From the NCBI GenBank assembly GCA_001782235.1, contig MFOC01000007.1, positions 156,040 to 220,039 of the forward strand: 64,000 nt of DNA, given 5' to 3'. The DNA comes from Candidatus Levybacteria bacterium RIFCSPHIGHO2_02_FULL_40_18. Its GTDB lineage: Bacteria; Patescibacteriota; Microgenomatia; Levybacterales; GWA1-39-11. Of the stretch, positions 637 through 24,109 are shown piece by piece; the first letter of the stretch is position 1; each line of letters opens with the position of its first letter. The position numbers and the translations under genes are program-made. A model generated the notes under the pieces. That model was not told the origin of the DNA. It searched no databases and saw only the letters and a list, made by a program, of their open reading frames with translations.

Positions 637-2571
637 TCATAAATATGTTGGTTCGTCCGTATATCGTTCGATATAATTCTTTTTCAAAACGTCCTCCGGG
701 AGCTCGTAAATAAAGCGGGAAATTTGGTTTGAAACAATTTGTCCAAAATATAATCTTCTTTTTGCAAAAACCAGATACAGTTTTTCTTTTGCGCGCGTAA
801 TCCCTACATAACAAAGTCTTCTTTCCTCCTCAAGTTCATGTGCATCCATCAATGATTGACTGTGAGGAAAAAGCCCCTCCTCCATCCCCACAATAAAGAC
901 AATTTTAAATTCAAGTCCTTTTGCTGCATGCACAGTCATAAGTGTTATTGCATCCTTTTCATCCTTAATAATTTTATCTGGCATGCTTGCCCGAAGCGTT
1001 GAAGAGGAGTATTCTTGCTCAACCAATGCAACATTCTCAAGAAACTGCGTAAGACTAGGAAATTCAATGGCAACAGATCTAAGTTCCTTAATGTTTTCTA
1101 TACGCGACTTATCTTCGGAATCTTTTTCGTCATAGAGTGATGGATAGTCCGTTTTTTTCAAAACTTCATCGAGAATTTCGATTGTAGGGTTTTTATCTAA
1201 ATATCCTCCTGCTTTTGCTTCTTCGAAATAATTCATAAAATTCGAAAGTCTCTTTTTGCCAATTTTTGTTATTCTTTTTAGAGCTACTTTATTCTTGGGA
1301 TTCGCAAGATACGAAAGATATGCCAGAACGTCTTTTATTTCCTTTCGCTCGTAGAATCTTGTTCCGCCAATTAAGATGTATGGGATTGAATTATGTAAAA
1401 AAGTTTCTTCAAGCGCGCGTGATTGAGCATTAGTTCTATACAGGATCGCAATATCGGAAAATTGGATCTTAGATCTTAGATCTTGGATCTTTGTGATTTC
1501 TTGAATTATAAATTCTGCTTCGTTGTGCTCGCTTTCTGCCGGAAAAATTATTATATCTTCACCGCTCTGGTTTTGCGTCCATAGAGAAAGTACAGGGTGC
1601 AATGTGTTGTTCGAAATAACGCTTGTAGCGGCATCCAAAATCTTTTGGGTTGAGCGATAGTTTTGAGAAAGAGGAAAAGTTTTTGCTTCCGGGAAATCTC
1701 GTTTGAATTTCTCAAGATTACGAAAATCCGCGCCTCTGAAGGAATATATGCTCTGCGAAAAATCGCCGACAATGCAAATATTTTTAAATTTTCCACCCAA
1801 GAGTTTTGTCAATTGATATTGAGCTTCATTCGTATCTTGATATTCGTCAACCATAACGTATTGAAATTTGTTTTGGTAGGAAGCCAAGAGTTCAGGAACT
1901 TTTTTGAAAAGTTCGATAGTTTTTAAAAGTAGGTCATCGAAGTCAAGAGCATCTTGATCGCGGAGCAAGCCTTGATAGACGGGATAGACTTTTGCAACTA
2001 TTTCCTGAAAATATCCTCGCGCAATAGATTGATACGTTTCTTCATCAATCATCTGGTTTTTGGCTTGCGAAATCATGGAGAGAACTGCCTGGGGTCTTAC
2101 TTCCTTTGGATTTAAATCAAGAAACGAGAATGTTTCTTTCATCGCCTCAAGCTGATCTTGATCATCAAATATTTGAAAACCAATGGGAATTCCAATAGCT
2201 CTTCCGTCTCGTCGCAGAATCTTGGCGCAAAGGGAGTGGAAGGTTCCAACAATTGGCTGCTCGTGAATTTTATTTTGGGCAAATACTTTTGTAATCCGTT
2301 CAAGCATTTCTCCGGCGGCTTTATTCGTGAAAGTGGTCAATAGGATATTTGATGGTCTGACCTTCTTTTCGAGAACTAAATAAAGTACGCGATGCACAAG
2401 GACTCGGGTTTTTCCAGACCCTGCTCCGGCCAAAACGATCATCGGGCCATCTGTATGGACCACTGCCGCTATTTGTTGATCATTTAATTTATCATGCGGG
2501 TCCTGCCACTTCACAAGGCCGCTCGTGTACGTTTTTCTCAGACCCGCTTGGGTGGTTCGGTTGAGTATCAC
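637..2571 (-). CDS. UvrD/PcrA/Rep-type superfamily-1 ATP-dependent DNA helicase
   Basis: Walker A VLAGAGSGKTRVL and SF1 helicase motifs (TFHSLC, VDEYQDTN, LYRTNAQSRALEE, VHAAKGLEF). The track GTG start at 2571 lies inside a repeat element; an alternative GTG at 2514 would start the gene just outside it. Confidence 0.85.
   Translation of the reverse strand: MILNRTTQAGLRKTYTSGLVKWQDPHDKLNDQQIAAVVHTDGPMIVLAGAGSGKTRVLVHRVLYLVLEKKVRPSNILLTTFTNKAAGEMLERITKVFAQNKIHEQPIVGTFHSLCAKILRRDGRAIGIPIGFQIFDDQDQLEAMKETFSFLDLNPKEVRPQAVLSMISQAKNQMIDEETYQSIARGYFQEIVAKVYPVYQGLLRDQDALDFDDLLLKTIELFKKVPELLASYQNKFQYVMVDEYQDTNEAQYQLTKLLGGKFKNICIVGDFSQSIYSFRGADFRNLEKFKRDFPEAKTFPLSQNYRSTQKILDAATSVISNNTLHPVLSLWTQNQSGEDIIIFPAESEHNEAEFIIQEITKIQDLRSKIQFSDIAILYRTNAQSRALEETFLHNSIPYILIGGTRFYERKEIKDVLAYLSYLANPKNKVALKRITKIGKKRLSNFMNYFEEAKAGGYLDKNPTIEILDEVLKKTDYPSLYDEKDSEDKSRIENIKELRSVAIEFPSLTQFLENVALVEQEYSSSTLRASMPDKIIKDEKDAITLMTVHAAKGLEFKIVFIVGMEEGLFPHSQSLMDAHELEEERRLCYVGITRAKEKLYLVFAKRRLYFGQIVSNQISRFIYELPEDVLKKNYIERYTDEPTYL
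1464..1491. repeat. AGATCTT-type heptanucleotide tandem repeat (4 units) inside the helicase CDS
   Basis: ggatctt agatctt agatctt ggatctt; encodes KIQDLRSKIQ in frame. Shares the 21-nt core with the repeat at 233..261. Confidence 0.8.
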
Positions 2572-2676
2572 ACCTTTATTCCCCCTTCGCTAAATGAAAA
2601 TCGCATATTCACATTTATCTATAAAATAATATTTTTCTTGGGCGATTTTCAGTTGTCTTCGAAAAAGCACACTTCC
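2520..2676 (+). repeat. ~155-bp MITE-like / structured element with terminal inverted repeats, copy 1 (copy 2 at 23954..24106)
   Basis: Shared blocks cgctcgtgtacNtttttctcagacccgct and ccttcgctaaatgaaaatcgcatattcac...tttttcttgNgcgattttcagttgtcttcgaaaaa are about 85-90% identical between copies. The ends are inverted (gtgtacNtttttc / gaaaaaNNNacac). An inner stem gaaaatcgc / gcgattttc is also present. Confidence 0.8.
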
Positions 2677-2719
2677 CGGCCTGGAGTCACTTTCAATATG
2701 CAAATTCGCCTTTAATTTA

Positions 2720-2749
2720 TTGAGAATATCATTCATGTGTTGCTATAAT
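2720..2749 (+). promoter_or_regulatory. Candidate sigma70 promoter for tpiA (TTGAGA-18-TGcTATAAT, extended -10)
   Basis: ttgaga at 2720-2725 and tgcTATAAT at 2741-2749, 21 nt upstream of the tpiA ATG. Confidence 0.4.
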
Positions 2750-2770
2750 TGGAATAACTTATATTTTACC

Positions 2771-3430
2771 ATGAAAGATTTACTCATTGTTGCAAACTGG
2801 AAAGAAAACAAAACTTGGGAAGAAGCGCTTGATTTTCTTTCGGAGTTCTCGAAAATTTACGAGCCCAAACCCAATGTAAAAGTAGCGATTTGTCCTCCCT
2901 ATCTCTTGGTGCCGGAAGTTTCAAATTATGTTCGAACGAATAATCTTTCGATTGATGTTGGAGTTCAAAATTTATCAAAATTTGACGAGGGCGCGCACAC
3001 CGGTGAGGTTTCGGCACGCGAGGCGGCGGAATTCGCTCGGTTTGCAATAATTGGGCATTCCGAGAGAAGGGCGCTTGGAGAAACAGATAGTGATGTTAAG
3101 ATGAAAGTCGAAATGGCAATCAAATATAACATTGAACCTATCGTTTGTGTTGTGAACGAAAATGTCCCTATCCCTTCTGGCACAAAAATAGTAGCGTACG
3201 AACCAATCGAGGCAATTGGGACGGGAAATCCCGATACGCCGGAAAACGCCGATAGAGTAGCATCGGCTATAAAATCAAAATACCAAGGAATAATGCATGT
3301 TCTATATGGAGGAAGCGTTACATCTGAAAACGTTCGAAGATTCACACAAATGCAAAACATTGACGGAGTTTTAGTTGGAGGAGCAAGTCTTGATCCAAAA
3401 GAATTTTCCGCAATTGTAAAACAATGCTAA
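2771..3430 (+). CDS. tpiA: Triosephosphate isomerase
   Basis: IANWKEN, AICPP, IIGHSERR and AYEPIEAIGTGNPDTPE (the AYEPxWAIGTG signature). The internal Met MKDLLIV is preferred over the track start at 2720. Confidence 0.85.
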   Translation: MKDLLIVANWKENKTWEEALDFLSEFSKIYEPKPNVKVAICPPYLLVPEVSNYVRTNNLSIDVGVQNLSKFDEGAHTGEVSAREAAEFARFAIIGHSERRALGETDSDVKMKVEMAIKYNIEPIVCVVNENVPIPSGTKIVAYEPIEAIGTGNPDTPENADRVASAIKSKYQGIMHVLYGGSVTSENVRRFTQMQNIDGVLVGGASLDPKEFSAIVKQC

Positions 3431-4575
3431 ATAATTTTTCAAATAAGAAGAAACTCTTTTTGGTCCTACTTGTTCTGTTTATTTTTTCTCTCGGAGTATT
3501 TATTTTATATAAATTCTATTTCAAGCCCGATATTCAACTTAAAACCGAGAAAAAAACAGGCAATATTAATGTTTTGCTTCTTGGCAAAGCGGGCGGTCAG
3601 CATGAAGGCCCGGATTTAACAGACACCATAATTTTAGCAACTATAAATCCTCAAAAAAACGTAGTTAATCTTATCTCAATCCCAAGAGATCTCTGGATAC
3701 CGGACCTTCAAGCGAAAATCAATACAGCATATGCATATGGGCAAGAGAAAGATCGCCAGGGAAAGCTTTTAGCAAAAACGGCCGTAAGTCAGGTTACGGA
3801 AAAACAAATAGACTATGTTTTAGTTGTTGATTTCCAGGCATTCGTAGATTTGATTGATCATATCGGAGGAATTGACGTAGGTGTTAAAACAATTCTTGAT
3901 GATTATAAATACCCAATTGAAGGCCGCGAGGATGATCCTTGTGATCATACGGATGAAGAGATTATAGACCTTTCAGCCCAGATCGCCACCGGGAGCGCCT
4001 TACCAGAAGATGTATTCCCATGTAGATATAAACACATACATTTTGATGCCGGATTAGTTCATATGGACGGAGAACGAGCCCTAGAGTTTGTCCGGTCGCG
4101 CCACGGCACGAATGGTCAAGGGTCGGATTTTGCAAGAAGCATGCGACAGCAAGATGTTATTAATGCGGTAAGGGATAAGACTTTATCTTTGGGAACACTC
4201 CTTAATCCCATTAAGGTTTTAGGTGCTTTCAATATCATTCAAAACAATATTGATACGAATGCAGAGATCCGTGAGTTAGATGATTTCATAAATTTGGCAA
4301 GAAAAATTCAGGGCGCAAAAATAATAAGTACCGTAATAGACATTGGATCCGGGGAAGGACAAAGGCCAGGATTACTTATACATCCTCCCGTGTCAGAAGC
4401 GCAAAAACTTCAGTGGGTATTAATACCAAGAGTAGGAGACGGAAATTTTTCAGAAATTCATGAGTTTATAAAATGCATCGAAGAAGGATTCGAATGTAAA
4501 ATTGAAGAAGACGGCATTAGTAAGAATACCACGAGTATCAAGAGTACCAAAAGTACCAGAAATATAAAAGACTAA
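3424..4575 (+). CDS. LytR-CpsA-Psr (LCP) family cell-envelope phosphotransferase
   Basis: N-terminal TM, then NVLLLGKAGGQHEGPDLTDTIILATINP...ISIPRDLWIP...INTAYAYG...VVDFQAFVDLIDHIGGIDV, which matches LCP domain hallmarks. The last 15 codons lie in a GTATCA-type repeat. Confidence 0.8.
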   Translation: MLNNFSNKKKLFLVLLVLFIFSLGVFILYKFYFKPDIQLKTEKKTGNINVLLLGKAGGQHEGPDLTDTIILATINPQKNVVNLISIPRDLWIPDLQAKINTAYAYGQEKDRQGKLLAKTAVSQVTEKQIDYVLVVDFQAFVDLIDHIGGIDVGVKTILDDYKYPIEGREDDPCDHTDEEIIDLSAQIATGSALPEDVFPCRYKHIHFDAGLVHMDGERALEFVRSRHGTNGQGSDFARSMRQQDVINAVRDKTLSLGTLLNPIKVLGAFNIIQNNIDTNAEIRELDDFINLARKIQGAKIISTVIDIGSGEGQRPGLLIHPPVSEAQKLQWVLIPRVGDGNFSEIHEFIKCIEEGFECKIEEDGISKNTTSIKSTKSTRNIKD

Positions 4576-4587
4576 AGAAAATGGTTG

Positions 4588-4703
4588 TTGGAAATTAGAA
4601 AATAGTAATGGAGATAGGAAAATAGAAAATAGTTTAAAAACCAATTTCTAACATCTAATTTCCATTACCAATTTCTATTTTCTAATAACTAATTTCTAAC
4701 TCC
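4588..4703. repeat. Palindromic GAAATTAG/GAAAATAG/TAATGGA element, copy 1 (family also at 5866..6025 and 63908..64000)
   Basis: Left arm ggaaattagaaaatagtaatggagataggaaaatagaaaatag; right arm is its approximate reverse complement ...ctaatttccattaccaatttctattttctaat. It fills the convergent gap between the LCP gene and the 4713..6980 gene. Confidence 0.75.
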
Positions 4704-4712
4704 TGATACCTT

Positions 4713-6980
4713 TTAGTTGAGTTTATATATCTTTGTCTGCCCGACTTCAAAAACTACATCTCCGAGCTTTTCAAACTTTGCCTCGTTGATATTATTGTAT
4801 TTTTCGCGTTCAAGATTCCCGAGATAAACATATTTGATATTATGTTTTTTTAGAATCTTTTTCGTTTCGTCTAGATCGTTTGATTCGTAAATTAGTCTCA
4901 CTTCCTCAATTCGAGGTGCCGGAATATCATACGTTCCGCGCCAGAGCCATTCGTGAACTGTCCAACCAAGGACCGTCGGGAGTCCTGTGTTTGCCGATAT
5001 TCGGGCGTAATCCGTATAGGAGTCTCCCTGTGCCTCAACAATAACCGGCCTTCCCTCTATATTTTGGTTTAACCACATGATGGCTTTATAATCATCCGGG
5101 AGTCTGTCTTTCATGTAAGCGATTCCGTCAAGTCCGATAAATTTTCTTAAGTCTCCATAATAAGATTTGATTGCAAAGTAAGGATAGACGAAGACCAATA
5201 TTAAAAATAAAATAGCAAGTAGCAAATATACGTAGTAAACCCCGTTAGACCAATACCGTCTAACGGGGTAAATATTAAAAACTTTAAAACCTTTCGGTTT
5301 GAAACTTACGGCCAATCTCACAATAATATAGCCTGATGAGATTGAAAGCATGATGAAGCTTTGATAGACAAGTTTAAACATAGTGTTCGCGCGATAGTGG
5401 GCAGGATAAATGTCTTTCAAATAGATAAGTTCCGGAGTTATAATTAGTATCGAAGAAAGAAGGATCAAAAGAAAGATAAAAACATCCGAAACTTCAACTT
5501 TGAATTTCTTTTTTTGCCTCCTGATAAAAATGATAAAAGATAAAACGAAAAAGTAAAAAAATCCATAGAGCGTTAATAGTTGCCACCAGGTGCTTCTTTG
5601 GCAGTGGTCTTTTTCAAAAAGAAGTGGTCCAATTTGCCCTATATTTTCTAAAAATTTTGGGGGGCAAACCATGCCGATTCCCTGAGCAAACGGCTTAAAA
5701 TTTAAACTAAAAGGGAGCGTGAATAATACAAATAAAAAGAAGAGCGGTATTATTAACTTTGGTTTGCGAATATAAACAAAGACAAAACCGGCAAGAGCCA
5801 TATAAATTAGTCCGTCCCACGCATTAGTCATATACATAATTGCTAGCAAGAGTGCTAGCAATAAAATTCGAAATTCGAAATTCGAAGTTCTATTAAAAAG
5901 AAATTGGTTTATAGAAATTAGAAAATGGTAATAGAAATTAGATATTAGAAATTGGTATTTTTTGCTATTTTCTATTTTCCAGCTTCCATTACTAATTTCA
6001 ATTTTCTTAGAACTATTTTCCCTTCGTGGGGTTCCATGCCTTTGTATTAATAAGGCATAGAGTAGGGCGATTGTTAAGAGTACGAAAGGAATGTCGATTA
6101 CATGGCCGTGTAAATCCGATACGACAAAAGAATAAATGGGGAATTCGTGGATTGTGAAAGGTATAAATCTTGTCGCATTTGGGTACCAGTAACTATTGGG
6201 AAAAGTAGAAAATAAAAATTGTAAATTCCAAAATGGAACCGGCGCGTCAGTATTATATGAGGCAAAAAACGCATATATTGTATGAAGATTTCCAGCTAAA
6301 GCCACAATAAGGCCTGTTAGAAGTCCTCCTATAAAAGCTTTTCTCAGAGATACGACTTTAGACAAGATATTCGTCCCCAAAGAAAATGATAAGGTCAATG
6401 TAAAAGAAAATAAGGTTGCGATCATTAAGTTATATGAAACAGAGGAAGGCACAAAAGAGATTTCTGTCATAACCGCGGTCACAAGGTGTCCAAAGTAATA
6501 ATAATTTATCGGTAACGGCGGGAACCACATATCAACCGCTGGTTGCCACGTTGTTCGAAGAATCGAGTTCACAAATCCAAAATCCATGAACTTCTCAAGA
6601 CCATTAATACTTGGTTCATGCGCACGAATATAGCTCCAGAAGACAATTCCGGCAAAGAAAAGAAATTCTTCGAATAGAAAAATTTTTGCGAAGGGCTTGA
6701 GTTTATCAATCCTATGCTTTTTAAGAATAAAAATATTTCCGATAAGACAAATCCATAAAATTATTGCAAGAGAGAAAACGCCAAAAGGCAAAAGATGTAG
6801 ACTGTTGACCACAAGAATTATGTAGGAAATAATTCCAATTCCAAGAACCTTTGAGAAAAGAAATCCTCGATCCCAAAAATTCTTGAATATTAAAAAAGTT
6901 AATGGCGCAAATACTATTCCCACCAAAAAGAATGAGCCCCACCACTCTAGAATCCAAACAACTTCTTGAAAGCTAAACAT
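4713..6980 (-). CDS. Polytopic membrane protein with Chlor_Arch_YYY / DUF2298-like region (putative GT-C-like glycosyltransferase)
   Basis: Many TM helices; PINYYYFGHL motif; conserved C-terminal soluble domain (GRPVIVEAQGDSYTDYARISANTGLPTVLGWTVHEW). Contains an in-frame repeat-element-derived segment (see 5866..6025). Confidence 0.5.
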   Translation of the reverse strand: MFSFQEVVWILEWWGSFFLVGIVFAPLTFLIFKNFWDRGFLFSKVLGIGIISYIILVVNSLHLLPFGVFSLAIILWICLIGNIFILKKHRIDKLKPFAKIFLFEEFLFFAGIVFWSYIRAHEPSINGLEKFMDFGFVNSILRTTWQPAVDMWFPPLPINYYYFGHLVTAVMTEISFVPSSVSYNLMIATLFSFTLTLSFSLGTNILSKVVSLRKAFIGGLLTGLIVALAGNLHTIYAFFASYNTDAPVPFWNLQFLFSTFPNSYWYPNATRFIPFTIHEFPIYSFVVSDLHGHVIDIPFVLLTIALLYALLIQRHGTPRRENSSKKIEISNGSWKIENSKKYQFLISNFYYHFLISINQFLFNRTSNFEFRILLLALLLAIMYMTNAWDGLIYMALAGFVFVYIRKPKLIIPLFFLFVLFTLPFSLNFKPFAQGIGMVCPPKFLENIGQIGPLLFEKDHCQRSTWWQLLTLYGFFYFFVLSFIIFIRRQKKKFKVEVSDVFIFLLILLSSILIITPELIYLKDIYPAHYRANTMFKLVYQSFIMLSISSGYIIVRLAVSFKPKGFKVFNIYPVRRYWSNGVYYVYLLLAILFLILVFVYPYFAIKSYYGDLRKFIGLDGIAYMKDRLPDDYKAIMWLNQNIEGRPVIVEAQGDSYTDYARISANTGLPTVLGWTVHEWLWRGTYDIPAPRIEEVRLIYESNDLDETKKILKKHNIKYVYLGNLEREKYNNINEAKFEKLGDVVFEVGQTKIYKLN
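5866..6025. repeat. Palindromic GAAATTAG/GAAAATAG element copy embedded in-frame inside CDS 4713..6980
   Basis: aaattcgaaattcgaaattcgaag...gaaattagaaaatggtaatagaaattag...tttttgctattttctattttccag...ccattactaatttc. It shares a 22-nt exact block (ctggaaaatagaaaatagcaaaaa, reverse complement) with the 63908 copy. It is translated as ENSSKKIEISNGSWKIENSKKYQFLISNFYYHFLISINQFLFNRTSNFEFRI. Confidence 0.7.
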
Positions 6981-7566
6981 ATTTTGTAAAGAACTCGGCT
7001 AAATCCTTTATTTGCTTTATATTATTAGGTAAATTTCTTGTCCACCGCTGTCTCGTTCCACTCGCAGCCGGTTTCCCTCGCACTTCGCCGGAGCCGGTGC
7101 TCGGTCCAACCCAGTAAAATTCAATATTCGGATTTTCCTTTGAGAGAAAGAGGAGAAGATCTAAATCGTCATCTATATATTTTTTAATCTTTTCTTTTTT
7201 GATGATGCTATCCTTAAATTTATGAGGCTGTTCGTCCTTCTCATTAAAATAGCATTTTTTAAAATATCCAAAAAGATTATTCTTTTTATCCCAATCGGCT
7301 GTTCGTTGTTTTAAAAATGAAAATCTACTCGAGATTAGATACATATTAGAGAGGCGAGTCTTTTTAAAAAATAGCAGATTGTTTTTTATTGCCGGACGAA
7401 AAATAGGAATATGGGACAAAACTCTTATTTTCTGCTCTAATTTACCGGGGAATCTGTACAAAAGGCTGTTTCTTCTTTGTTTATAGAGCCACTCAATTAA
7501 AAATTTTGGTATGAAAGGAGGACCACTAATAAAGACGCCATCAAGATCAAAGCCTATTTTTGTCAT
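6973..7566 (-). CDS. Hypothetical protein, possibly HAD-superfamily-like (FDLDGV motif)
   Basis: The N-terminal IGFDLDGVF resembles HAD motif I; the rest is unassigned. Contains a GC-rich patch at 7040-7110 encoding WVGPSTGSGEVRGKPAASGTRQRW. Confidence 0.3.
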   Translation of the reverse strand: MTKIGFDLDGVFISGPPFIPKFLIEWLYKQRRNSLLYRFPGKLEQKIRVLSHIPIFRPAIKNNLLFFKKTRLSNMYLISSRFSFLKQRTADWDKKNNLFGYFKKCYFNEKDEQPHKFKDSIIKKEKIKKYIDDDLDLLLFLSKENPNIEFYWVGPSTGSGEVRGKPAASGTRQRWTRNLPNNIKQIKDLAEFFTKYV

Positions 7567-14059: not shown

Positions 14060-14128
14060 ATAAAGGTATTTTAGATGTTCTCTAGAGGACAAACAAGCCC
14101 TTCGGCTGTGCTCAAGGTTATAGTCCTT

Positions 14129-15481: not shown

Positions 15482-15483
15482 AT

Positions 15484-15792: not shown

Positions 15793-15799
15793 AAAAATA

Positions 15800-16411: not shown

Positions 16412-16412
16412 A

Positions 16413-16964: not shown

Positions 16965-17021
16965 AATTTCCCTTTCTGTATGTTATCCTGAACCCCGCTT
17001 TATCGGGGTGAAGGATCTTTT

Positions 17022-17327: not shown

Positions 17328-17428
17328 ATAAGGCTAAGATTCTTCGCCTATGGCTCAGAATGACAATACCACTTTGAGGTGAATTCGCCATGAATCCAGT
17401 TTAGGGAATTTCGGCTAGTTTGTAAAGC

Positions 17429-17761: not shown

Positions 17762-17856
17762 TTTTCAAGTCTAGCGCATGGCCCGCCTAGACAGATATTA
17801 TCATCTATTTTTCTATCTGGGCAGGGCAATTTTAGCATGATATACTTGTAAATACA

Positions 17857-19509
17857 ATGGTAGCAAGTCTTGTAAAAAAAGGATTAACCGCTTTCGTATC
17901 AAAACAAACAAATATTTTTACTGCGGCATCGTTTATAATTTTAACAACAATTTTTTCTCAAATACTGGGAATCTTAAAATACAGATTGCTAGTGTCTCTT
18001 TTTGGAGCTTCACAAGAGCTCGGAGTCTTTTTTGCCGCGTTCAGAATTCCCGATTTTGTTTTCCAGGTAGTGATAGCAGGCGCTCTTTCCTCATCTTTTA
18101 TACCAATTTTTGCCGATTTTATTTCCCGCGATAAAAAGCAAGAAGGTTTTGAATTCTCTTCAACATTAATAACAATGGGATTGGTATTTTACATCTTTGT
18201 TTCGGCAGTAATTATTGTTTTTTCTTATCAACTGGCAAGTATTGTTGCGCCTGGGTTCTCTCAAAGTGAATTGCGGCTTATGGCAAATCTAATGATAATT
18301 ATTCAGCTCGCGCAAGTTTTTTTTATTTTAGGAACCATATTTACTGCCATGTTGCAATCTTTTCAGCATTTTGTCATCCCGGGTCTTGCCAGCGCATTCT
18401 ATAATTTTGGGATAATTTTGGGCTTAATAATTTTCTCCCATTTCTTAGGGGTTGGAATATACGGAGCTACTATAGGAGTTTTAATTGGAGCTATATTTTT
18501 TTCTCTTATTCAACTTCCACTACTTGCTGTTACCGGTTTTAGGTTTTCACCTTCTTTCGCTCTTACTCCGGGAATCGACAAGTTATTTCGACTTATGGTG
18601 CCCCGTTCTCTAACTGTTATCATTTCTCAAATCGCAGCAACAGCCAATGTTTTTTTTGCTTCATTTTTATCAGCAAGGTCGCTTGTAATCTTTGACCTGG
18701 CACATACACTTGCTATGGCCCCAGTTTTGCTACTAGGTCAATCAATTGCCCAAGCCTCTTTCCCGGCGCTCTCTTTAAAGTCGGGAGACAGACGTGAATT
18801 TCTTTCCATTTTAACATCTTCTTTTAATCAAATTCTATATTTAACTTTACCCATCAGCGCACTTTTAATAGTCTTGAGGATTCCATTAGTAAGGCTTTTT
18901 TATGGCGCGTCAAGATTTGACTGGGAGGCAACGGTAGAAACAGGATTAACACTTGCTTATTTTGCAATCGCAATTACTGCAAATGCATTAATTGCTCTTC
19001 TTTCGCGAGCTTTTTATGCTTTCAAAGATTCAAAAACACCGTTCATAATTACAAGTATTACTGTTGCCATTAATATTTTCTTGTCTTACCTCTTTATACT
19101 TACCTATCAATTGCCGATTTATTTCTTGGCATTTTCTTTTTCAACATCATCTATTGTTGGAGTGGTTCTAATGGCCTTTTTGTTAAATAAAAGAATTGAA
19201 CTGCCAAAAATAGAAATTATGGTTTCCTCTGCCAAAATTATTATTTCAACTATTGTTATGGGCGCCGCACTTTATATTCCTATCAAGCTCCTCGATCAAT
19301 TGGTATTTGATACCACAAGAACAGTCGGCTTATTGGCTTTGACAGGAATTGCCTCGGCGGCAGGATTTGCTTCCTATATTTTCTTCACGTGGCTTTTGGA
19401 TATAAAAGAAGCATATTACGTTATTCGCGTTCTTAAGAAATTCGGACAGAAGGATAAGATATTAAAGGGCCTAAACGAAATCATCGGCGGTCCCAAATTC
19501 AACGGCTGA
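17857..19509 (+). CDS. murJ: Lipid II flippase MurJ (MviN)
   Basis: About 14 TMs. The N-terminal FGASQELGVFFAAFRIPDFVFQVVIAGALSSSFIPIF matches the MurJ signature. Confidence 0.85.
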   Translation: MVASLVKKGLTAFVSKQTNIFTAASFIILTTIFSQILGILKYRLLVSLFGASQELGVFFAAFRIPDFVFQVVIAGALSSSFIPIFADFISRDKKQEGFEFSSTLITMGLVFYIFVSAVIIVFSYQLASIVAPGFSQSELRLMANLMIIIQLAQVFFILGTIFTAMLQSFQHFVIPGLASAFYNFGIILGLIIFSHFLGVGIYGATIGVLIGAIFFSLIQLPLLAVTGFRFSPSFALTPGIDKLFRLMVPRSLTVIISQIAATANVFFASFLSARSLVIFDLAHTLAMAPVLLLGQSIAQASFPALSLKSGDRREFLSILTSSFNQILYLTLPISALLIVLRIPLVRLFYGASRFDWEATVETGLTLAYFAIAITANALIALLSRAFYAFKDSKTPFIITSITVAINIFLSYLFILTYQLPIYFLAFSFSTSSIVGVVLMAFLLNKRIELPKIEIMVSSAKIIISTIVMGAALYIPIKLLDQLVFDTTRTVGLLALTGIASAAGFASYIFFTWLLDIKEAYYVIRVLKKFGQKDKILKGLNEIIGGPKFNG

Positions 19510-19557
19510 AGGAGATACTAGAAACTAGATAATAGTGACTAGGGAATAGTAATTAGG

Positions 19558-20664
19558 ATGGCAGACAGAAAAATAACATATTCCAAAGTTGGAGATAATT
19601 ACGATACAAAAGATCCAATAAAAAAACTCGCTCAGAATGCTGCTCGCTTAACCGCAAACAATCTTCGCAAGCATAATTTTGAAGAAATGCCGGATTCAAG
19701 AGGAGAGTCAGCTTACGTTTGGAAGCAAGGGGATGTCTATATGGCATCTGTTATTGAAGGTTTAGGCACTAAAAATTTAGTTGCTGACGGAACGCGAAAA
19801 ATAACAGGAAAAACCTACTACGACATTATTGCATACGATACCGTTGCCACAATTATCAATGATTTAGTAACAGTTGGAGCCACACCGCTTGTGCTCCACG
19901 CATATTGGGCGATTGAGAATAATGAGTGGCTCTACGATGAAGAACTAATGAAAAACTTAATTTCTGGATGGAAGAAAGCTTGTGACATTGCAGGTGTTTC
20001 GTGGGGAGGAGGAGAAACCGCAACTCTTAAACAAGTTGTGATTAAAGGTGCTTCTGAATTTGGTGGATCGGCTGTCGGAATAATTCGTTCAAAGAAACAC
20101 TTAATAACTGATAATAAATTAAGACCTGGAGATCGTATAGTTCTCATACAAAGTAACGGAATTAATGCGAATGGTATTTCGCTTGCACGAGCAGTTGCAA
20201 AAAAAATAAACGGCGGATACGGAACAAAACTTTCAAATGGGAAGATTTATGGCGAGGCGCTACTTACAAAATCTAATATTTACTCGAAATTAGTTCAAGA
20301 TTTGCAAGATACAAACGTAGATATCCACTATATTTCAAATATTACCGGTCACGGAGTTCGTAAAATAATGCGAGCAAGACCTGCATTTACCTATACTATT
20401 GAGAAAATATTTAAGCCTCAGGAAGTATTTGTTTTTATACAAAAACATGCGGGACTTTCAGATTATGAAATGTATGAAACATATAATATGGGACAGGACT
20501 ACGCAATTTTTGTCTCAAAAAAAGACGTCGAAAAAACCTTAAGACTTGTTCAAAAAAATAAATTCAAAGCAATCGATGCAGGTTACGTTGAACAAGGCAA
20601 GAGACAAGTTATCGTAAAACCCAAAAATATTGTTTATAGTTCTAAGACTCTAAACTTAAGATGA
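19558..20664 (+). CDS. purM: Phosphoribosylformylglycinamidine cyclo-ligase (AIR synthetase)
   Basis: IEGLGTKNLVA, IAYDTVATIINDLVTVGATPL, GGGETA, PGDRIVLIQSNGINANGISL, EMYETYNMG; all align with PurM blocks. Confidence 0.8.
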   Translation: MADRKITYSKVGDNYDTKDPIKKLAQNAARLTANNLRKHNFEEMPDSRGESAYVWKQGDVYMASVIEGLGTKNLVADGTRKITGKTYYDIIAYDTVATIINDLVTVGATPLVLHAYWAIENNEWLYDEELMKNLISGWKKACDIAGVSWGGGETATLKQVVIKGASEFGGSAVGIIRSKKHLITDNKLRPGDRIVLIQSNGINANGISLARAVAKKINGGYGTKLSNGKIYGEALLTKSNIYSKLVQDLQDTNVDIHYISNITGHGVRKIMRARPAFTYTIEKIFKPQEVFVFIQKHAGLSDYEMYETYNMGQDYAIFVSKKDVEKTLRLVQKNKFKAIDAGYVEQGKRQVIVKPKNIVYSSKTLNLR

Positions 20665-21368
20665 GAGAAAGAATGGCGAGTATGGTCGGCGAGAGCGGGA
20701 CGACAATGGAATTCCTGGGGCGAGAGATAATGGATGGTAAGCTTGAAGGTATCGGTCTCGAATTGGTTATTGCCGATCATTCAAACACCCCATCTACTTC
20801 TCGAGCAGAAATTCTAAGAATTCCTGTCGAAGTAATTGAAAAAGCCAAATTTAAAAATCGAAATTCATATGGTGAAGCACTTTTACGACTATTTGAAAGA
20901 TATCGAATCTCAGTAATTTCACTTAACGGAACTCTTAATATAATTCCTGAGAATGTTTTAAATGAGTTTGAGGATAGAATTTTCAATCAACATCCGGGTC
21001 CAAAAAAAGAAACTGAGAAAACCTGAGGAATAGGCCCGTATGCGATAATGCTTGAGTTTACAAAATTGACTGGGAGAAACGAAGGGACAAATGTAATTAT
21101 TCATCGCGTAACTAATCAAATCGATGAGGGGCCAACAGTTGCTATTTCTCATGTTCCAATTTTTGAAGAAGATACGGCCGAAACTTTACAGGAAAGAGGT
21201 AAAGAGAGAGAAAGGCAACTTCAACTTGAGTTTTGGAAAGGGTTTGTAAAAGGTGAGGTTCAAGAAATTCAAGACACAGTCTATATGAGACCTGGTGAAG
21301 AAGAAATTTTGGAATCCGCCCGCCAAAAAGCAAGAAAAGACTACCCCAACGGCTGGAGACGTACTTGA
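20661..21368 (+). pseudogene. purN: Phosphoribosylglycinamide formyltransferase (purN) interrupted by one in-frame TGA at 21024..21026
   Basis: ORFs 20661..21026 and 21048..21368 are in the same frame. Reading through the TGA restores a colinear PurN (…NQHPGP-KKETEKT-*-GIGPYAIMLEFTKLTG…VIIHRVTNQIDEGPTV; compare PurN NIHPSLLP…VHFVTEELDAGPII). An A7 run at 21002-21008 lies just upstream of the TGA. Confidence 0.6.
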
Positions 21369-21419
21369 TTTTGGTTTTTTATATAACAAAACGGAATTTT
21401 TGGGGTGATATAATAATCG

Positions 21420-21770
21420 TTGGTGATTATTACAAAAGGTGAGCCCTATACAAAAGAAGAAATAAAAAAGCTAAGTGAACAATTTGATGTTTATATAAAA
21501 ACAGTTATTGATGTAAGCAAAAAGATTTGTTCGGCAGGATGTGATCGTCATTTTGAGTCGGAGAGAGTTCTTTTAAATGAAGGATCAAGAGAGTCAGATT
21601 TGTGGGGAGGAGGAGTTGATCTTGAAACAGGTGAAGTTGATTGTAATTCGTTTATTAACATAAGGCCGGGAGATAATAATACTAGCAATGAAATTCAAAA
21701 TCCTGAAACAAGAAAGGTATTTGAGGATCTGACAAAATACTTTTTTAAAGAAATTTATGGACAAAAATAA
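21420..21770 (+). CDS. Hypothetical protein (116 aa, CSAGCDRH motif)
   Basis: No family recognised. A TGaTATAAT extended -10 lies at 21398-21406. Confidence 0.3.
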   Translation: MVIITKGEPYTKEEIKKLSEQFDVYIKTVIDVSKKICSAGCDRHFESERVLLNEGSRESDLWGGGVDLETGEVDCNSFINIRPGDNNTSNEIQNPETRKVFEDLTKYFFKEIYGQK

Positions 21771-22032
21771 AATTGCCCTTTCATCACTGGCACTTGATTT
21801 AAAGCGAGTAGCGCTTGGATACTTCCGTGGATCAAATAGCATGGCTGAGCGTTTTTTTGAAGAAGCTTTGAGGAGAAAGAAAGAAATTGACAGCAGGAAA
21901 GTTAAGCCCTATATTAGGAATCTTCTCTCAAATTTTGAGAAGATAATGTTTGATCACGATCAAAAGAAACAGGCAGAAGACGCATTGATGTATAGTACCC
22001 TATTCCAGAACGCCTCCCTCGCGAAGAAATAA
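21757..22032 (+). CDS. Hypothetical small helical protein (91 aa)
   Basis: Overlaps the previous ORF by 14 nt, so possibly a two-gene module; no family recognised. Confidence 0.3.
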   Translation: MDKNKIALSSLALDLKRVALGYFRGSNSMAERFFEEALRRKKEIDSRKVKPYIRNLLSNFEKIMFDHDQKKQAEDALMYSTLFQNASLAKK

Positions 22033-22052
22033 GTTTCTGATATAATTTCCAC

Positions 22053-23951
22053 ATGGTTCGACAAGACTCACCACAAGTGAATCAATCTAACATTCGGAAT
22101 TTTTGTATTATTGCGCATGTGGATCATGGGAAGTCTACGTTGGCGGATAGGCTGCTTGAGATAACGGGGACTGTTCGAAAAGAAGAACTAAAAGAACAGT
22201 TTCTCGATTCAAGTGAAATTTCAAGGGAACACGGAATAACAATTAAATTAGCACCAGTCAGGATGGAATACAAGGTTGGGGGAGAGGTTAAAAGTTTGGG
22301 CAGCCAGTATAGTGAGGGGGTTGGGTCATTGGGTAAAAAAAGCCCTACAACCACACCCATAAACCATACTAGTAGCCACAACCAAACCCAAAACCAAACC
22401 TTCGTTTTGAACCTGATTGACACTCCGGGGCATGTGGATTTTTCCTATGAAGTTGTTCGAACACTTTATGCGTGTGAAGGGGCGATACTTTTGGTCGATG
22501 CTACAAAAGGAGTACAGGCCCAAACAGTTGCAAATTATAATTTTGCAAAAAAACTTGGACTTACAATTATTCCTGTAATAAATAAAATCGATTTACCTAC
22601 TGCGAATATAGAAAAGGTCGAGAACGAAATTGTTTCGAGTTTTGGATTTGATAAAGATTCGATATTAAAAATTTCGGCCAAGACCGGTGAAGGGGTCCAA
22701 GAATTAATTCGAACAGTTGTCGAAAGAGTTCCTGCCCCAGGTGGTAGTTCGGATTCTCCAACGCAAGCACTTATTTTCGACTCAATCTACGATGAGCATC
22801 GAGGGATTGTTATTTATGTTCGTTTAAAAAATGGAAGAATCAAAAAAGGCGACAAAATTGCTTTTGCATCGGACGGTTCGAAAACTCTCGTAAACGAGGT
22901 TGGATACATGAGGCCATTATTTTCTTATTCGGTCGAACTTGTAAACGGTGAGGTTGGTTTTATTATTACAAATATTAAAGACATAACTCAAGCAAAAGTT
23001 GGGGACACGATTCTAAATGAAAAGGGCGAAGGGACTTCTCTTGGTAAATATATTGAGCAGAAACCTTTCGTTTATTTATCGATTTATCCTACATCGATCT
23101 CCGATTTCCAAAATTTGAGAAAAGCTTTGTATAGGCTAAAACTCAATGATGCGGCACTTTCGATTGCTCCCGAACAATCAAATATTTTTGGTCCCGGTTT
23201 TCGCTGCGGATTTTTAGGGCTTTTACATGCACAAATTTTAATTGAGCGGATTGAGCGCGAGGAGGGGGTTGAAGTGTTTGCTGCGCCGCCATCAATCGAA
23301 TATATTGTTGATGGCAAAAGCATTACAAATCCAAAAGATTTTGATCTCGCAAATCACGAAGTAAAAGAGCCATATGTTTTGGGTGAGATTTATACCCCGC
23401 AGGAATATCTTGGTTCGATTCTTGAGTTAATACATAAGAGGCGGGGAGAAAGTTCGAACGTAACATATTTTGGCACACAGACTAAAATAGAATTTACAAT
23501 GCCTTTGGCTAATGTTATTTATGATTTTTATGACAAATTAAAAACCTTATCATCAGGTTTTGCTTCTTTTGATTATGATGTAGCAGACTTTCGGGAATCG
23601 AATTTATCCCGAATCGATATTTCCGTAAACAATAAGACAATTCCAGAGTTGTCATTCGTAGTTCATAAAAACGAGACAGAAAGTTTCTCGCGAAGAATGG
23701 TTAAAGCTTTATCCTTGGAAATTCCAAGACACCAGTTTGAAGTTTTTGTCAGAGCCCAAATTGGTTCACGTGTTGTTGCGTCAGAAAGGATAATGCCATT
23801 TAAAAAAGATGTAACTGCTAAATTATACGGCGGAGATAGAACCCGCAAAGACAAGCTTTTAGAGGCACAAAAGAAGGGCAAGAAAAAAATGAAAAAAATA
23901 GGACAAGTCAATGTCCCCAAAGAAGCCTTTCTAGCAGTATTAAAAGCTTAG
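22053..23951 (+). CDS. lepA: Elongation factor 4 (LepA) with a ~40-aa low-complexity insertion in the G domain
   Basis: AHVDHGKSTLADRLL, DTPGHVDF, NKID and a LepA C-terminal domain. Insertion VGGEVKSLGSQYSEGVGSLGKKSPTTTPINHTSSHNQTQNQT lies between switch I and G3 and is encoded by 7-nt-periodic DNA at 22270-22400. Confidence 0.9.
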   Translation: MVRQDSPQVNQSNIRNFCIIAHVDHGKSTLADRLLEITGTVRKEELKEQFLDSSEISREHGITIKLAPVRMEYKVGGEVKSLGSQYSEGVGSLGKKSPTTTPINHTSSHNQTQNQTFVLNLIDTPGHVDFSYEVVRTLYACEGAILLVDATKGVQAQTVANYNFAKKLGLTIIPVINKIDLPTANIEKVENEIVSSFGFDKDSILKISAKTGEGVQELIRTVVERVPAPGGSSDSPTQALIFDSIYDEHRGIVIYVRLKNGRIKKGDKIAFASDGSKTLVNEVGYMRPLFSYSVELVNGEVGFIITNIKDITQAKVGDTILNEKGEGTSLGKYIEQKPFVYLSIYPTSISDFQNLRKALYRLKLNDAALSIAPEQSNIFGPGFRCGFLGLLHAQILIERIEREEGVEVFAAPPSIEYIVDGKSITNPKDFDLANHEVKEPYVLGEIYTPQEYLGSILELIHKRRGESSNVTYFGTQTKIEFTMPLANVIYDFYDKLKTLSSGFASFDYDVADFRESNLSRIDISVNNKTIPELSFVVHKNETESFSRRMVKALSLEIPRHQFEVFVRAQIGSRVVASERIMPFKKDVTAKLYGGDRTRKDKLLEAQKKGKKKMKKIGQVNVPKEAFLAVLKA

Positions 23952-23953
23952 AC

Positions 23954-24106
23954 GCTCGTGTACATTTTTCTCAGACCCGCTCGGTAAGTTATTAGTTTAT
24001 TAATGTTATCCTCCCTTCGCTAAATGAAAATCGCATATTCACTTTAGTCTATATGTAATATTTTTCTTGAGCGATTTTCAGTTGTCTTCGAAAAATGTAC
24101 ACTTTG
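23954..24106 (+). repeat. ~155-bp MITE-like / structured element, copy 2
   Basis: Terminal inverted repeats cgtgtacatttttc / gaaaaatgtacac (13 bp perfect), with inner stem gaaaatcgc / gcgattttc. Exactly fills the convergent gap between the lepA stop (23951) and the stop of gene 24110..25309. Confidence 0.8.
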
Positions 24107-24109
24107 CGC

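What the first reader, a model, noticed from the sequence alone, without database searches (positions are those of the whole stretch)
2520..24106. Two copies of a ~155-bp element with terminal inverted repeats and nested stems (MITE or structured RNA)
Positions 2520-2676 (between the helicase start and the tpiA promoter) and 23954-24106 (exactly filling the lepA / surface-protein convergent gap) share about 85-90% identity over about 120 nt, with a variable ~30-nt internal segment. Copy 2 has perfect 13-bp terminal inverted repeats (gtgtacatttttc / gaaaaatgtacac) and a perfect 9-bp inner stem (gaaaatcgc / gcgattttc). Both copies have the same orientation and lie on the sense strand of the adjacent gene (tpiA 5' side, lepA 3' side). 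The element could be a non-autonomous transposable element or a conserved cis-acting structured RNA. In copy 1 it overlaps the annotated helicase start codon.
Basis: seen in the sequence. Interest (0 to 1): 0.65.

Follow-up and report, generated by a model that had tools for sequence, protein, structure and literature searches.

The report
Small palindromic mobile element in Levybacteria
The two look-alike 160-base stretches are copies of a small, hairpin-forming, probably mobile DNA element (a MITE-like repeat) found in a few related groundwater Levybacteria, and one copy landed inside the start of a DNA-helicase gene, which now seems to start translation from inside the element.

Summary
Copy 1 (window 2518-2681) and copy 2 (23951-24110) are about 81-85% identical, with three blocks of 25-30 nt that are identical. 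A third copy lies elsewhere in the same genome, Ca. Levybacteria RIFCSPHIGHO2_02_FULL_40_18. Homologous copies occur in four related Levybacteria.

Five copies at three loci are flanked by TA on both sides. Removing copy 2 plus one TA restores overlapping TAA stop codons for lepA and the convergent surface-protein gene, at the residues where their orthologues end. Relatives lack the element at all three window-genome loci.

Copy 1 sits in a 218-nt composite insertion flanked by a 10-bp direct repeat, inside codon 9 of pcrA/uvrD. The ancestral ATG is stranded upstream as a 48-codon leader ORF. The helicase frame restarts at GTG 2571, 9 nt after a GGGGG box inside the element. A relative has the same arrangement with an ATGA stop/start overlap.

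Three nested stems are kept by compensatory changes: 19 of 33 pairs change on both sides, and no shuffle reached that. There is no Rfam match, no terminator and no transposase in the window.

Best reading: a new MITE-like family, whose mobilising enzyme was not found. Selection for an RNA or DNA hairpin at the host level is not excluded.

The parts
2518..2681 (+). Copy 1 (c1) of the ~160-nt element, 164 nt. It is given in the orientation shared by both window copies. The strand that carries the purine-rich GGGGG box is the minus strand, which is the sense strand of pcrA/uvrD. The flanking dinucleotides are AG and TG, not TA.
   Evidence: covariance model 174.6 bits.
23951..24110 (+). Copy 2 (c2), 160 nt. 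It is flanked by TA at 23949-23950 and TA at 24111-24112. It fills the whole gap between the lepA stop and the stop of the convergent surface-protein gene.
   Evidence: 184.4 bits.
23958..23976 (+). Left terminal inverted-repeat arm of c2 (stems P1+P2), GTGTACATTTTTCTCAGAC. It pairs with 24084-24102.
   Evidence: 19 nt, 89% complementary; the outer 13 nt are perfect.
24084..24102 (+). Right terminal inverted-repeat arm of c2, GTCTTCGAAAAATGTACAC.
24022..24083 (+). Inner hairpin P3 of c2: arms 24022-24034 and 24071-24083, with a variable AT-rich loop of about 36 nt.
   Evidence: helix 4 is 100% paired in all copies; 3 pairs covary.
2525..2543 (+). Left inverted-repeat arm of c1. It pairs with 2655-2672. 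There is one bulged G, and one A.C mismatch that reads as G.U on the minus strand.
2592..2654 (+). Inner hairpin P3 of c1: arms 2592-2604 and 2642-2654.
2493..2710 (-). The whole 218-nt insertion in the 5' coding region of pcrA/uvrD. It consists of c1 plus 29 nt (2682-2710) and 25 nt (2493-2517) of extra inserted DNA. The 25-nt part (GAAGTGGCAGGACCCGC) is shared with the orthologous insertion in relative L013.
2711..2720 (-). Upstream copy of the 10-bp direct repeat ATAAATTAAA. It encodes part of the ancestral N-terminus (ILNKL).
2483..2492 (-). Downstream copy of the 10-bp direct repeat ATAAATTAAA. It encodes DKLN, where the conserved helicase sequence resumes.
2590..2736 (-). Stranded leader ORF of 48 codons. 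It begins with the ancestral pcrA/uvrD start ATG (2736-2734) and the first 8 ancestral codons (MNDILNKL), then reads into the element and stops at TAG 2592-2590.
   Evidence: orthologue N-termini.
2569..2585 (-). Secondary translation start of pcrA/uvrD inside the element: the GGGGG box (2585-2581), a 9-nt spacer, then GTG (2571-2569).
   Evidence: The 644-aa product from this start is what gene callers report (P0124).
637..2571 (-). pcrA/uvrD helicase ORF as it now reads (644 aa). The first 19 codons are encoded by the element, and the next 9 codons by the 25-nt flank and the downstream direct repeat.
   Evidence: (the UvrD-helicase domain starts at residue 29).
22053..23951 (+). lepA. Its TAG stop (23949-23951) is made of the flanking TA plus the first base (G) of the element.
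24110..25309 (-). Cohesin/PKD-like surface protein gene. Its TAG stop (24112-24110 on the minus strand) is made of the flanking TA plus the last base (C) of the element.
2720..2749 (+). Promoter-like site for tpiA (TTGAGA-18-TATAAT; the tpiA ATG is at 2771). It lies outside the element and overlaps the stranded ancestral helicase codons.

Best explanation
The two stretches are copies of a roughly 160-nt non-coding palindromic repeat family. It behaves like a miniature inverted-repeat transposable element (MITE) and is restricted to a small clade of Candidatus Levybacteria (CPR/Patescibacteria).

Anatomy. On the strand carrying the purine box, the order is:
- a flanking TA;
- a short variable closing stem (P0);
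- a 13-bp stem (P1), a tandem G.A/A.G internal loop, and a 4-6-bp stem (P2);
- a 10-11-bp inner hairpin (P3) with a variable loop of about 36 nt;
- an invariant single-stranded box TTTCATTTAGYGARGRGG, then a variable stretch of about 35 nt;
- the 3' strands of P2, P1 and P0, and a flanking TA.

Inferred mechanism. The element was inserted at TA dinucleotides, duplicating the TA, by a transposase supplied in trans that was not found. Because the termini are G...C, each junction reads TAG on the inward-reading strand. An element landing in the TA of a stop codon therefore leaves the flanking gene terminated at the same residue. This is what is seen for lepA, the convergent surface-protein gene and, in a relative, dnaJ.

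After insertion, the copies persisted and kept their hairpin through compensatory changes. Most copies sit within 16 nt of a stop codon. There the hairpin would be part of the 3' end of the mRNA, and it may act like REP/BIME or ERIC elements as a 3' stem-loop. This role is inferred, not shown.

Copy 1 is a special case. It lies in a 218-nt composite insertion, flanked by a 10-bp direct repeat, that split pcrA/uvrD after codon 8. The old promoter, start codon and first 8 codons survive as a leader ORF that ends inside the element. The helicase is most likely translated by termination and re-initiation at a new start just downstream of the element's purine-rich (Shine-Dalgarno-like) box.
For: Repeat family:
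- There are three copies in one genome at unrelated loci. c1 and c2 are in the window. c3 is on JGI contig Ga0209541_10000005, between a 161-aa ORF and mraZ. Exact protein look-up shows it is the same organism.
- A covariance model built from four copies finds divergent homologues in two other species: L015 at 56 bits (E about 1e-11) and L013 at 52 bits (E about 1e-10). It finds closer ones in L014 and L017/L018.

TA flanks:
- c2, c3, L014, L015 and L017 are all flanked by TA on both sides, at the point where homology between copies ends.
- Deleting c2 plus one TA gives AAAGCT-TA-AAGGGC. LepA then ends ...KA-TAA and the surface protein ...AL-TAA. These are the same last residues as in the relative L006, where the proteins end ...RA* and ...LLAL*.
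- The same logic restores ...WF-TAA for dnaJ in L015, matching the window's DnaJ C-terminus.

Presence and absence at orthologous sites:
- The lepA site is empty in L006/L007, whose LepA is 79% identical.
- The helicase site is empty in L009 (85%) and occupied by an unrelated insert in L011.
- The mraZ site is occupied in L017 (MraZ 92%) and L014 (86%), but empty in L025 (92%) and L020 (88%).

Insertion into a gene:
- 100 or more Levybacteria PcrA homologues start M-x-D-I-L-N-K-L-N.
- The window keeps ATG AAT GAT ATT CTC AAT AAA TTA upstream of the insertion and resumes with ...AAA TTA AAT GAT CAA downstream. A 10-bp duplication flanks the insertion.
- The leader ORF and the new starts were verified by translation.

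Structure:
- On the 8-row alignment, 90.7% of cells are paired against 78.6% in shuffles (0/500).
- 19 of 33 pairs change on both sides, against 6.5 in shuffles (0/500).
- The covariation score is 0.346, against 0.135 in shuffles and at most 0.122 when partners are slid (six-copy version).

Not a known RNA or a terminator.
Against: - No autonomous element or transposase with matching ends was found. There is none in the window by Pfam. The only IS seen nearby, in relative L006, has unrelated ends.
- Copy number is very low. Only 3 loci carry the invariant 20-mer in the searched metagenomes.
- The outermost 5-7 nt vary between copies while staying complementary. This is unusual for transposase-recognised termini.
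- c1 and its orthologue L013 are not flanked by TA. They lie within a larger insertion with a 10-bp duplication, so at least that event used another route or is nested.
- No strain-level empty site was recovered, so the TA duplication is inferred from gene ends rather than seen directly.
- At the mraZ site the element is far better conserved than the adjacent, unalignable spacer. Compensatory changes separate copies at the same site. This points to selection in place, which a purely selfish element does not need.
- Transcription, mRNA stabilisation and re-initiation are all untested.
Confidence: 0.62

Rival explanations
1. A host-selected structured RNA. This could be a cis-acting 3'-UTR or leader element, or a small RNA gene, that spread by duplication. 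Its three-stem fold and invariant single-stranded box would be the functional unit, and mobility would be incidental or absent.
For: - Covariation in all stems is strong, including the internal hairpin P3, which is not part of the termini.
- An 18-nt single-stranded box and a GAATATGC motif are invariant across five species.
- A tandem G.A/A.G internal loop is retained, though shifted by two pairs in L014.
- The purine-box strand always folds better than its complement. Minimum free energy is lower by 3-17 kcal/mol in six copies, and z-scores are -4.3/-6.0 against -1.3/-5.0.
- At the mraZ site the element is conserved in three species, while the neighbouring spacer cannot be aligned.
Against: - Orientation relative to transcription is inconsistent. 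The purine-box strand is sense for pcrA (c1, L013) but antisense to both flanking genes at the mraZ and dnaJ sites.
- The stems are 87% Watson-Crick. G.U pairs number 5 on one strand against 2 on the other, which is not decisive.
- There is no promoter-like or terminator-like site within the copies and no Rfam family.
- TA flanks, restoration of gene ends, patchy presence among equally close relatives, and insertion into a coding region are not expected of a regulatory RNA.
Confidence: 0.2
2. A REPIN/BIME-like element: a hairpin-forming repeat recognised as single-stranded DNA by a RAYT or IS200/IS605-type tyrosine (HUH) transposase, rather than a cut-and-paste TA-targeting DDE enzyme.
For: - It is a long hairpin whose pairing, rather than its terminal sequence, is conserved. 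The outermost stem P0 varies but stays complementary.
- It sits immediately after stop codons and between convergent genes, as REP/BIME elements do (the comparison with REP/BIME is from general knowledge).
- Copy number is low and no DDE transposase is detected.
Against: - The GTAG tetranucleotide that defines REPs is absent. The base before TAG is T, C or A in the ten junctions read.
- At 160 nt with a three-way architecture, it is larger than REP doublets.
- A 2-bp TA duplication is inferred from three gene ends, whereas HUH transposition leaves none.
- No Y1/HUH transposase gene was seen in the window.
Confidence: 0.1
3. A chance similarity, or a duplicated promoter or terminator segment with no identity as an element.
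For: Both window copies are intergenic and AT-rich. One lies next to a promoter-like site.
Against: - 25-30-nt exact blocks have 0 expected chance matches.
- Homologues exist in four other species, with covariation.
- There is no terminator-like site in the copies, and the tpiA promoter lies outside the element.
Confidence: 0.01

Closest known systems
Correia repeat-enclosed elements (CREE/NEMIS) of Neisseria (from general knowledge)
   Same: - Size is about 100-160 bp, they are non-coding, and they have terminal inverted repeats.
- They insert at TA, duplicating it.
- They lie in intergenic space close to gene ends and fold into a long hairpin when transcribed.
- They can change expression of neighbouring genes.
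- No transposase has been firmly assigned.
   Different: - There is no sequence similarity.
- Correia elements occur in hundreds of copies per genome, whereas only 3 are seen here.
- Correia termini are well conserved, whereas here the outer 5-7 nt vary.
- This family has an extra internal hairpin and an invariant purine-rich box.
- The host is a CPR bacterium.
ERIC/IRU and related enterobacterial MITEs, and RUP of Streptococcus pneumoniae (from general knowledge)
   Same: - They are small palindromic repeats in transcribed intergenic regions.
- They are TA-associated.
- Subfamilies differ by compensatory changes.
- Effects on mRNA stability depend on orientation.
   Different: - The sequence is unrelated.
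- RUP has a candidate IS630-type partner, whereas none was found here.
- Copy number is much lower.
Rickettsia palindromic elements (RPE) (from general knowledge)
   Same: They are palindromic repeats of about 100-150 nt that can sit inside protein-coding genes without killing them.
   Different: - RPEs are read through in frame and become part of the protein.
- Copy 1 is not read through. It carries stops in the incoming frame, and the gene restarts inside the element, leaving a stranded leader ORF.
REP/BIME/REPIN elements mobilised by RAYT transposases (from general knowledge)
   Same: - They are hairpin-forming extragenic repeats just after stop codons and between convergent genes.
- Pairing is maintained by correlated changes.
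- A proposed role is as a 3' mRNA stem-loop.
   Different: - There is no GTAG motif.
- The element is larger and has a three-way architecture.
- A TA duplication is inferred.
- No RAYT gene was seen.

Membership tests
MITE (bacterial non-autonomous DNA transposon) | Short (under about 300 bp) and without coding capacity | tested here: met
   - The element is 159-180 nt.
- No ORF is conserved between copies.
- The 73-aa mechanical ORF across c1 has no relative among 1.84 billion representative proteins.
MITE (bacterial non-autonomous DNA transposon) | Terminal inverted repeats | tested here: met
   In c2 the repeat is 13 bp perfect and 19 bp at 89%. It is present in all copies.
MITE (bacterial non-autonomous DNA transposon) | Target-site duplication flanking each copy | tested here: inconclusive
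   - c2, c3, L014, L015 and L017 have TA on both sides.
- The single-TA pre-insertion state restores the gene ends seen in relatives.
- c1 has AG/TG and L013 has GT/AG, and both lie inside a larger insertion with a 10-bp repeat.
- No true empty site from a near-identical strain was obtained.
MITE (bacterial non-autonomous DNA transposon) | Several dispersed copies in one genome | tested here: met
   There are three loci in one organism. The number is low, and the whole genome could not be scanned.
MITE (bacterial non-autonomous DNA transposon) | Presence/absence polymorphism at orthologous sites | tested here: met
   - The lepA site is empty in L006/L007.
- The helicase site is empty in L009.
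- The mraZ site is occupied in L014 and L017 and empty in L020 and L025.
- All comparisons are between species, not strains.
MITE (bacterial non-autonomous DNA transposon) | A cognate autonomous IS with the same ends | tested here: inconclusive
   - There is no transposase in the 64-kb window.
- The IS in L006 has unrelated ends.
IS630/Tc1-mariner-derived MITEs | TA target duplication | tested here: inconclusive
   As above: 5 of 7 copies have TA flanks.
IS630/Tc1-mariner-derived MITEs | Conserved outermost bases of the inverted repeats | tested here: not met
   The outer 5-7 nt differ between copies while remaining complementary:
- c1: GGCCG/CGGCC
- c2: GGCGC/GCGTC
- c3: GACAC/GCGGC
- L017: GAGTG/CACTC
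IS630/Tc1-mariner-derived MITEs | An IS630-family transposase in the host genome | not testable with these tools
   The complete genome could not be retrieved. Only about 100 kb of it was seen.
REP/BIME/REPIN | Conserved GTAG at the 5' end of each repeat unit | tested here: not met
   The junctions read TTAG, CTAG or ATAG, never GTAG.
REP/BIME/REPIN | RAYT (Y1/HUH) transposase gene in the genome | not testable with these tools
   None is in the window. The rest of the genome was not available.
Any Rfam RNA family | Score at or above the family's gathering threshold | tested here: not met
   - There are 0 matches in the window and in five loci carrying copies.
- At E up to 10, only two chance-level hits appear, at 13-15 bits against thresholds of 47 and 79.
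Intrinsic transcription terminator | Short GC-rich hairpin followed by a T run | tested here: not met
   No terminator-like site lies inside either copy. The sequence after the 3' arm is CACTTTGCGCC or CACTTCCCGG.

The most novel reading that the evidence does not exclude
The element is not merely selfish DNA but a hairpin module kept by the host. Orthologous copies in several Levybacteria species appear to have preserved a three-stem fold by compensatory changes in place, while neighbouring spacer DNA diverged beyond alignment. On this reading the fold has a function at RNA or single-stranded DNA level. One candidate is a REP-like 3'-end stabiliser or transcription barrier for the gene that ends at its TAG junction. 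In pcrA/uvrD it would act as a built-in re-initiation platform: a leader ORF stop, then a Shine-Dalgarno-like box, then a new start. That would make it a portable 'stop-and-restart' cassette, which lets a minimal-genome CPR bacterium tolerate insertions even inside essential genes.
Probability: 0.2. Interest if true: 0.65.

Novelty: new member of a known kind. Interest (0 to 1): 0.45.

Why it matters
Small palindromic mobile repeats are well known in Proteobacteria and Firmicutes. Two full-text literature searches found no description of them in the Candidate Phyla Radiation, whose genomes are tiny, densely packed and thought to be poor in mobile DNA.

This family shows how such an element can survive in a genome with almost no spacer. 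It lands on the TA of stop codons, and its G...C ends rebuild a TAG for the flanking genes.

In one case it split a conserved DNA-repair helicase gene, and the gene survived in two species through a leader ORF plus an internal restart.

The finding also has a practical side for annotation. The helicase start called in public gene sets lies inside a repeat, and the real ancestral start is an apparently orphan 48-codon ORF.

If the hairpin proves to be selected at RNA level, it would be one of the few candidate cis-acting RNA structures specific to CPR bacteria.

Tried and rejected
- Rfam at gathering thresholds on the window and on five loci, and at E up to 10 on copy 2, gave nothing meaningful.
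- Exact 19-20-mers from two invariant blocks gave 0 hits in viral contigs. The one tried in the GTDB species genomes also gave 0.
- The same 20-mer in JGI metagenomes returned only the third locus.
- BLASTN in distant mode against phage and plasmid records gave no match.
- The mechanical 73-aa ORF across copy 1, searched against 1.84 billion representative proteins in the hope that spurious ORFs would reveal other copies, gave 0 hits.
- A small-peptide reading was rejected. The frame through the 3' half is open in all copies (..AGLRK(T/M)YTS..), but a start codon exists only in c1, L013 and L015. The plus-strand MK(I/V/A).. mini-ORF has no ribosome-binding site, and its conservation is explained by stem P3.
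- A hammerhead or other ribozyme was considered because of a CUGAGA/GAAA resemblance. It was rejected because the motif is not conserved in L014 and Rfam ribozyme models do not match.
- The DDE_Tnp_1 IS next to lepA in relative L006 was rejected as parent element. Its ends (TGGTGCAA...) are unrelated.
- An internal promoter was not supported. Only one weak 9/12 site was found in c1 and none in c2.
- I could not resolve the history of the helicase insertion. The 29-nt and 25-nt outer segments and a duplicated 3' terminus (CACGAGCGGC..TGTGAAGTGGC) suggest nesting or partial replacement of an older L013-type copy, but alternative alignments exist.
- The Elusimicrobiota hit L016 is a chance match to the degenerate pattern. 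It has no similarity outside the pattern and lies in GC-rich context.

Full report

Yes. The two stretches align over about 160 nt in the same orientation. Mean column identity is 85% with flanks included, and 81% over 163 model-aligned positions.

Divergence is not uniform. Three blocks are identical or nearly so:
- CGCTCGTGTACRTTTTTCTCAGACCCGCT
- CCCTTCGCTAAATGAAAATCGCATATTCAC
- GCGATTTTCAGTTGTCTTCGAAAAA

Each occurs exactly twice in the window, with zero expected by chance. Two segments of about 30-35 nt are roughly half different.

- In copy 2 the outer arms are perfect over 13 bp and 89% complementary over 19 bp.
- The inner stem has a perfect 10-bp core.

BLASTN-short, nhmmer and a covariance model find no third copy in the window.

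**2. Whose genome, and are there more copies?**

Exact protein look-ups place the window in Candidatus Levybacteria bacterium RIFCSPHIGHO2_02_FULL_40_18, a groundwater CPR organism, and in sibling assemblies.

An invariant 20-mer found one further locus in JGI metagenomes, L004/L005. It lies between a 161-aa membrane-protein ORF and mraZ. The neighbouring proteins are those of the same organism. The genome therefore has at least three copies: c1, c2 and c3.

The same 20-mer is absent from the GTDB species genomes, and it and a second block are absent from viral contigs. Phage and plasmid records give no match either.

After a divergent copy turned up by synteny (section 4), a degenerate pattern matching all known copies found two more Levybacteria species, L014 and L015, plus one chance hit. 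Synteny look-ups added L017/L018.

A covariance model built from four copies scores the divergent ones at 52-56 bits, with E about 1e-10 to 1e-11. It finds nothing else in about 250 kb of related DNA.

**3. Boundaries and flanks.**

It is bracketed by TA on both sides in c2, c3, L014, L015 and L017.

For c2 the consequences can be checked:
- lepA's TAG is the left TA plus the element's first G.
- The convergent cohesin/PKD protein's TAG is the right TA plus the element's last C.
- Removing the element and one TA leaves GCT-TAA on one strand and CTT-TAA on the other, overlapping in TTAA.
- Both proteins then end at the same residues as in relative L006, which lacks the element (...RA* and ...LLAL*).

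This explains why the element 'exactly fills' the gap: the two genes abutted.

The same reconstruction gives ...WF-TAA for dnaJ in L015, matching the window's own DnaJ end.

I take this as good indirect evidence for a 2-bp TA duplication. No true empty site from a near-identical strain was available.

**4. Copy 1 is inside a gene.**

More than a hundred Levybacteria PcrA/UvrD homologues are 610-630 aa long and begin M-x-D-I-L-N-K-L-N-x-E-Q. In the window, reading the minus strand:
- ATG AAT GAT ATT CTC AAT AAA TTA (MNDILNKL) lies at 2736-2713, upstream of the element.
- The conserved sequence resumes at ...GAT AAA TTA AAT GAT CAA CAA (DKLNDQQ) at about 2492.
- A 10-bp direct repeat ATAAATTAAA brackets 218 nt of inserted DNA (2493-2710), of which c1 is the central 164 nt.

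The old start now heads a 48-codon ORF that stops at TAG 2592-2590 inside the element. Four nucleotides after that stop comes GGGGG (2585-2581). A further 9 nt downstream is the GTG at 2571, in frame with the helicase. Public gene calls use this start (P0124, 644 aa).

A relative, L013 from Hainich groundwater (helicase 83% identical), has a divergent homologue of the element at the same site. It shares the flank GAAGTGGCAGGACCCGC, which encodes KWQDP. There the old ATG heads a 54-codon ORF whose TGA overlaps the new ATG as ATGA, 9 nt after AGAGGGG.

Two species thus keep the ancestral start, a leader ORF ending at the new start, and an SD-like box from the element. Termination and re-initiation is the simplest reading, but it is an inference.

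Other close relatives differ at this site. L009 (85%) has no insertion. L011 has an unrelated insert of about 113 nt with a 9-bp duplication at the start codon.

The c1/L013 copies are not flanked by TA. The outer 29-nt and 25-nt segments, and a duplicated 3' terminus in the window, suggest nesting or partial replacement. I could not resolve this history.

**5. Presence and absence.**

- The lepA site is empty in L006/L007.
- The helicase site is empty in L009.
- The mraZ site is occupied in L017 (MraZ 92%) and L014 (86%).
- The mraZ site is empty in L025 (92%) and L020 (88%), where a PF05635 gene sits instead.

Copies within one genome resemble each other (78-84%) more than they resemble positional counterparts in other species (70-76%). 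L017's variable region resembles c2 rather than c3. This fits either repeated insertion from each genome's own pool or gene conversion among copies. Both are repeat-family behaviour.

**6. Structure.**

All copies fold into the same architecture: closing stem P0, stems P1 and P2 separated by a tandem G.A/A.G loop, inner hairpin P3, and a long single-stranded 3' segment.

Counts on the model-guided 8-row alignment (six-copy version):
- 90.7% of cells pair, against 78.6% in shuffles (0/500).
- 19 of 33 pairs change on both sides, against 6.5 in shuffles (0/500).
- The covariation score is 0.346, against 0.135 in shuffles and at most 0.122 for slid partners.

The alignment is fitted to the model, which favours the structure. 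Even so, individual cases are plain in the raw sequences:
- P3 reads TGAAAATCGC/GCGATTTTCA, TGAAAGTCGC/GCGACTTTCA, TGAAAGCTGGC/GCCAGCTTTCA and TGAAAGCTAGC/GCTAGCTTTCA.
- P2 reads AGAC/GTCT, GAGGAC/GTCCTC and TTGAAAGTGA/TCACTTTCAA.

The purine-box strand always has the lower folding energy and the better z-scores. But G.U pairs number 5 against 2 on the other strand, so the strand under selection is not established.

**7. What it is not.**

- No Rfam family matches.
- No terminator-like site lies in either copy, and there is no consistent promoter.
- No peptide is conserved, and the ORF across c1 has no relatives.
- No transposase is in the window.

**8. Interpretation.**

The following point to a MITE-like mobile element:
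- dispersed copies;
- terminal inverted repeats;
- TA flanks that restore gene ends;
- patchy distribution among equally close relatives;
- an insertion that split a conserved gene.

From general knowledge, the nearest analogues are the TA-associated palindromic repeats of Neisseria (Correia), enterobacteria (ERIC) and pneumococcus (RUP). Rickettsia RPEs are the analogue for residence inside genes.

Several points keep the confidence moderate:
- There is no partner transposase.
- Only three copies were found.
- The outermost bases vary while staying complementary.
- The helicase locus is not flanked by TA.

Compensatory change among positional counterparts, together with conserved single-stranded boxes, leaves room for host-level selection on the hairpin. 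That could be as a 3'-end stem-loop, since most copies lie within 16 nt of a stop codon, or as the re-initiation platform in pcrA.

**9. Novelty and verdict.**

The kind is known. The family is new. Two literature searches found no description of such repeats in CPR bacteria.

It is a real, moderately interesting feature. Its most useful by-products are the corrected anatomy of the helicase 5' end and a small covariance model that can be run on complete Levybacteria genomes.

Noticed in passing
L011:1400-1527 (also L012, L010): In a relative (helicase 82% identical), a different palindromic insert of about 113 nt sits exactly at the helicase start codon. Its arms are GTCATTCTGACACTGAGCGAAGCGAA ... 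TTCGCTAACGCTCAGGATGAC. It is flanked by a 9-bp direct repeat ATGAACGAT. This is a second, unrelated MITE-like family at the same spot.
   Followed up: partly
window 2711-2736 (minus strand) and homologues P0133, P0137, P0141, P0170, P0172, P0225, P0239: Several Levybacteria PcrA homologues carry extra in-frame residues directly after M-x-D-I-L-N-K. The AT-rich sequence AATAAATTAAAT at the start of this gene looks like a recurrent insertion hot spot.
   Followed up: partly
window 56809-57204 (+); L020:2288-2650, L023:794-1156, L025:1689-2051: A PF05635 '23S rRNA intervening sequence protein' (bAvd-like four-helix bundle) gene is in the window. A gene of the same family occupies the position between the 160-aa ORF and mraZ in relatives that lack the element there.
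   Followed up: no
window 22053-23951 (+): LepA is 632 aa here, against about 586-605 aa in relatives. The extra length appears to be a low-complexity insert (KSLGSQYSEGVGSLGKKSPTTTPINHTSSHNQTQNQ) in the GTPase domain. It is shared only by the closest homologues (90-100% identity).
   Followed up: no
window 20661-21368 (+): Two adjacent short ORFs (121 and 106 aa) both hit Formyl_trans_N. This could be a split or frameshifted purN-like gene. It is conserved as two ORFs in all sibling assemblies.
   Followed up: no
L006:3383-4405: An IS with a DDE_Tnp_1 transposase lies two genes downstream of lepA in a relative. It has inverted repeats of about 34 bp beginning TGGTGCAA, which are unrelated to the element studied.
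   Followed up: yes
window 2737-2770: Only 34 nt separate the ancestral helicase ATG (2736, minus strand) from the tpiA ATG (2771, plus strand). The tpiA promoter-like site therefore overlaps the first helicase codons. This 34-nt stretch is almost identical in L011 and L013. The helicase promoter was not located.
   Followed up: no
L015:736-780: In the L013/L015 subfamily the purine box is followed by an ATG. In L015 this opens a 14-codon ORF (MISIVVAERHFQRG). Its AGGAG is predicted to pair with CTCCT just before the ATG. Whether this mini-ORF is ever translated is unknown.
   Followed up: partly
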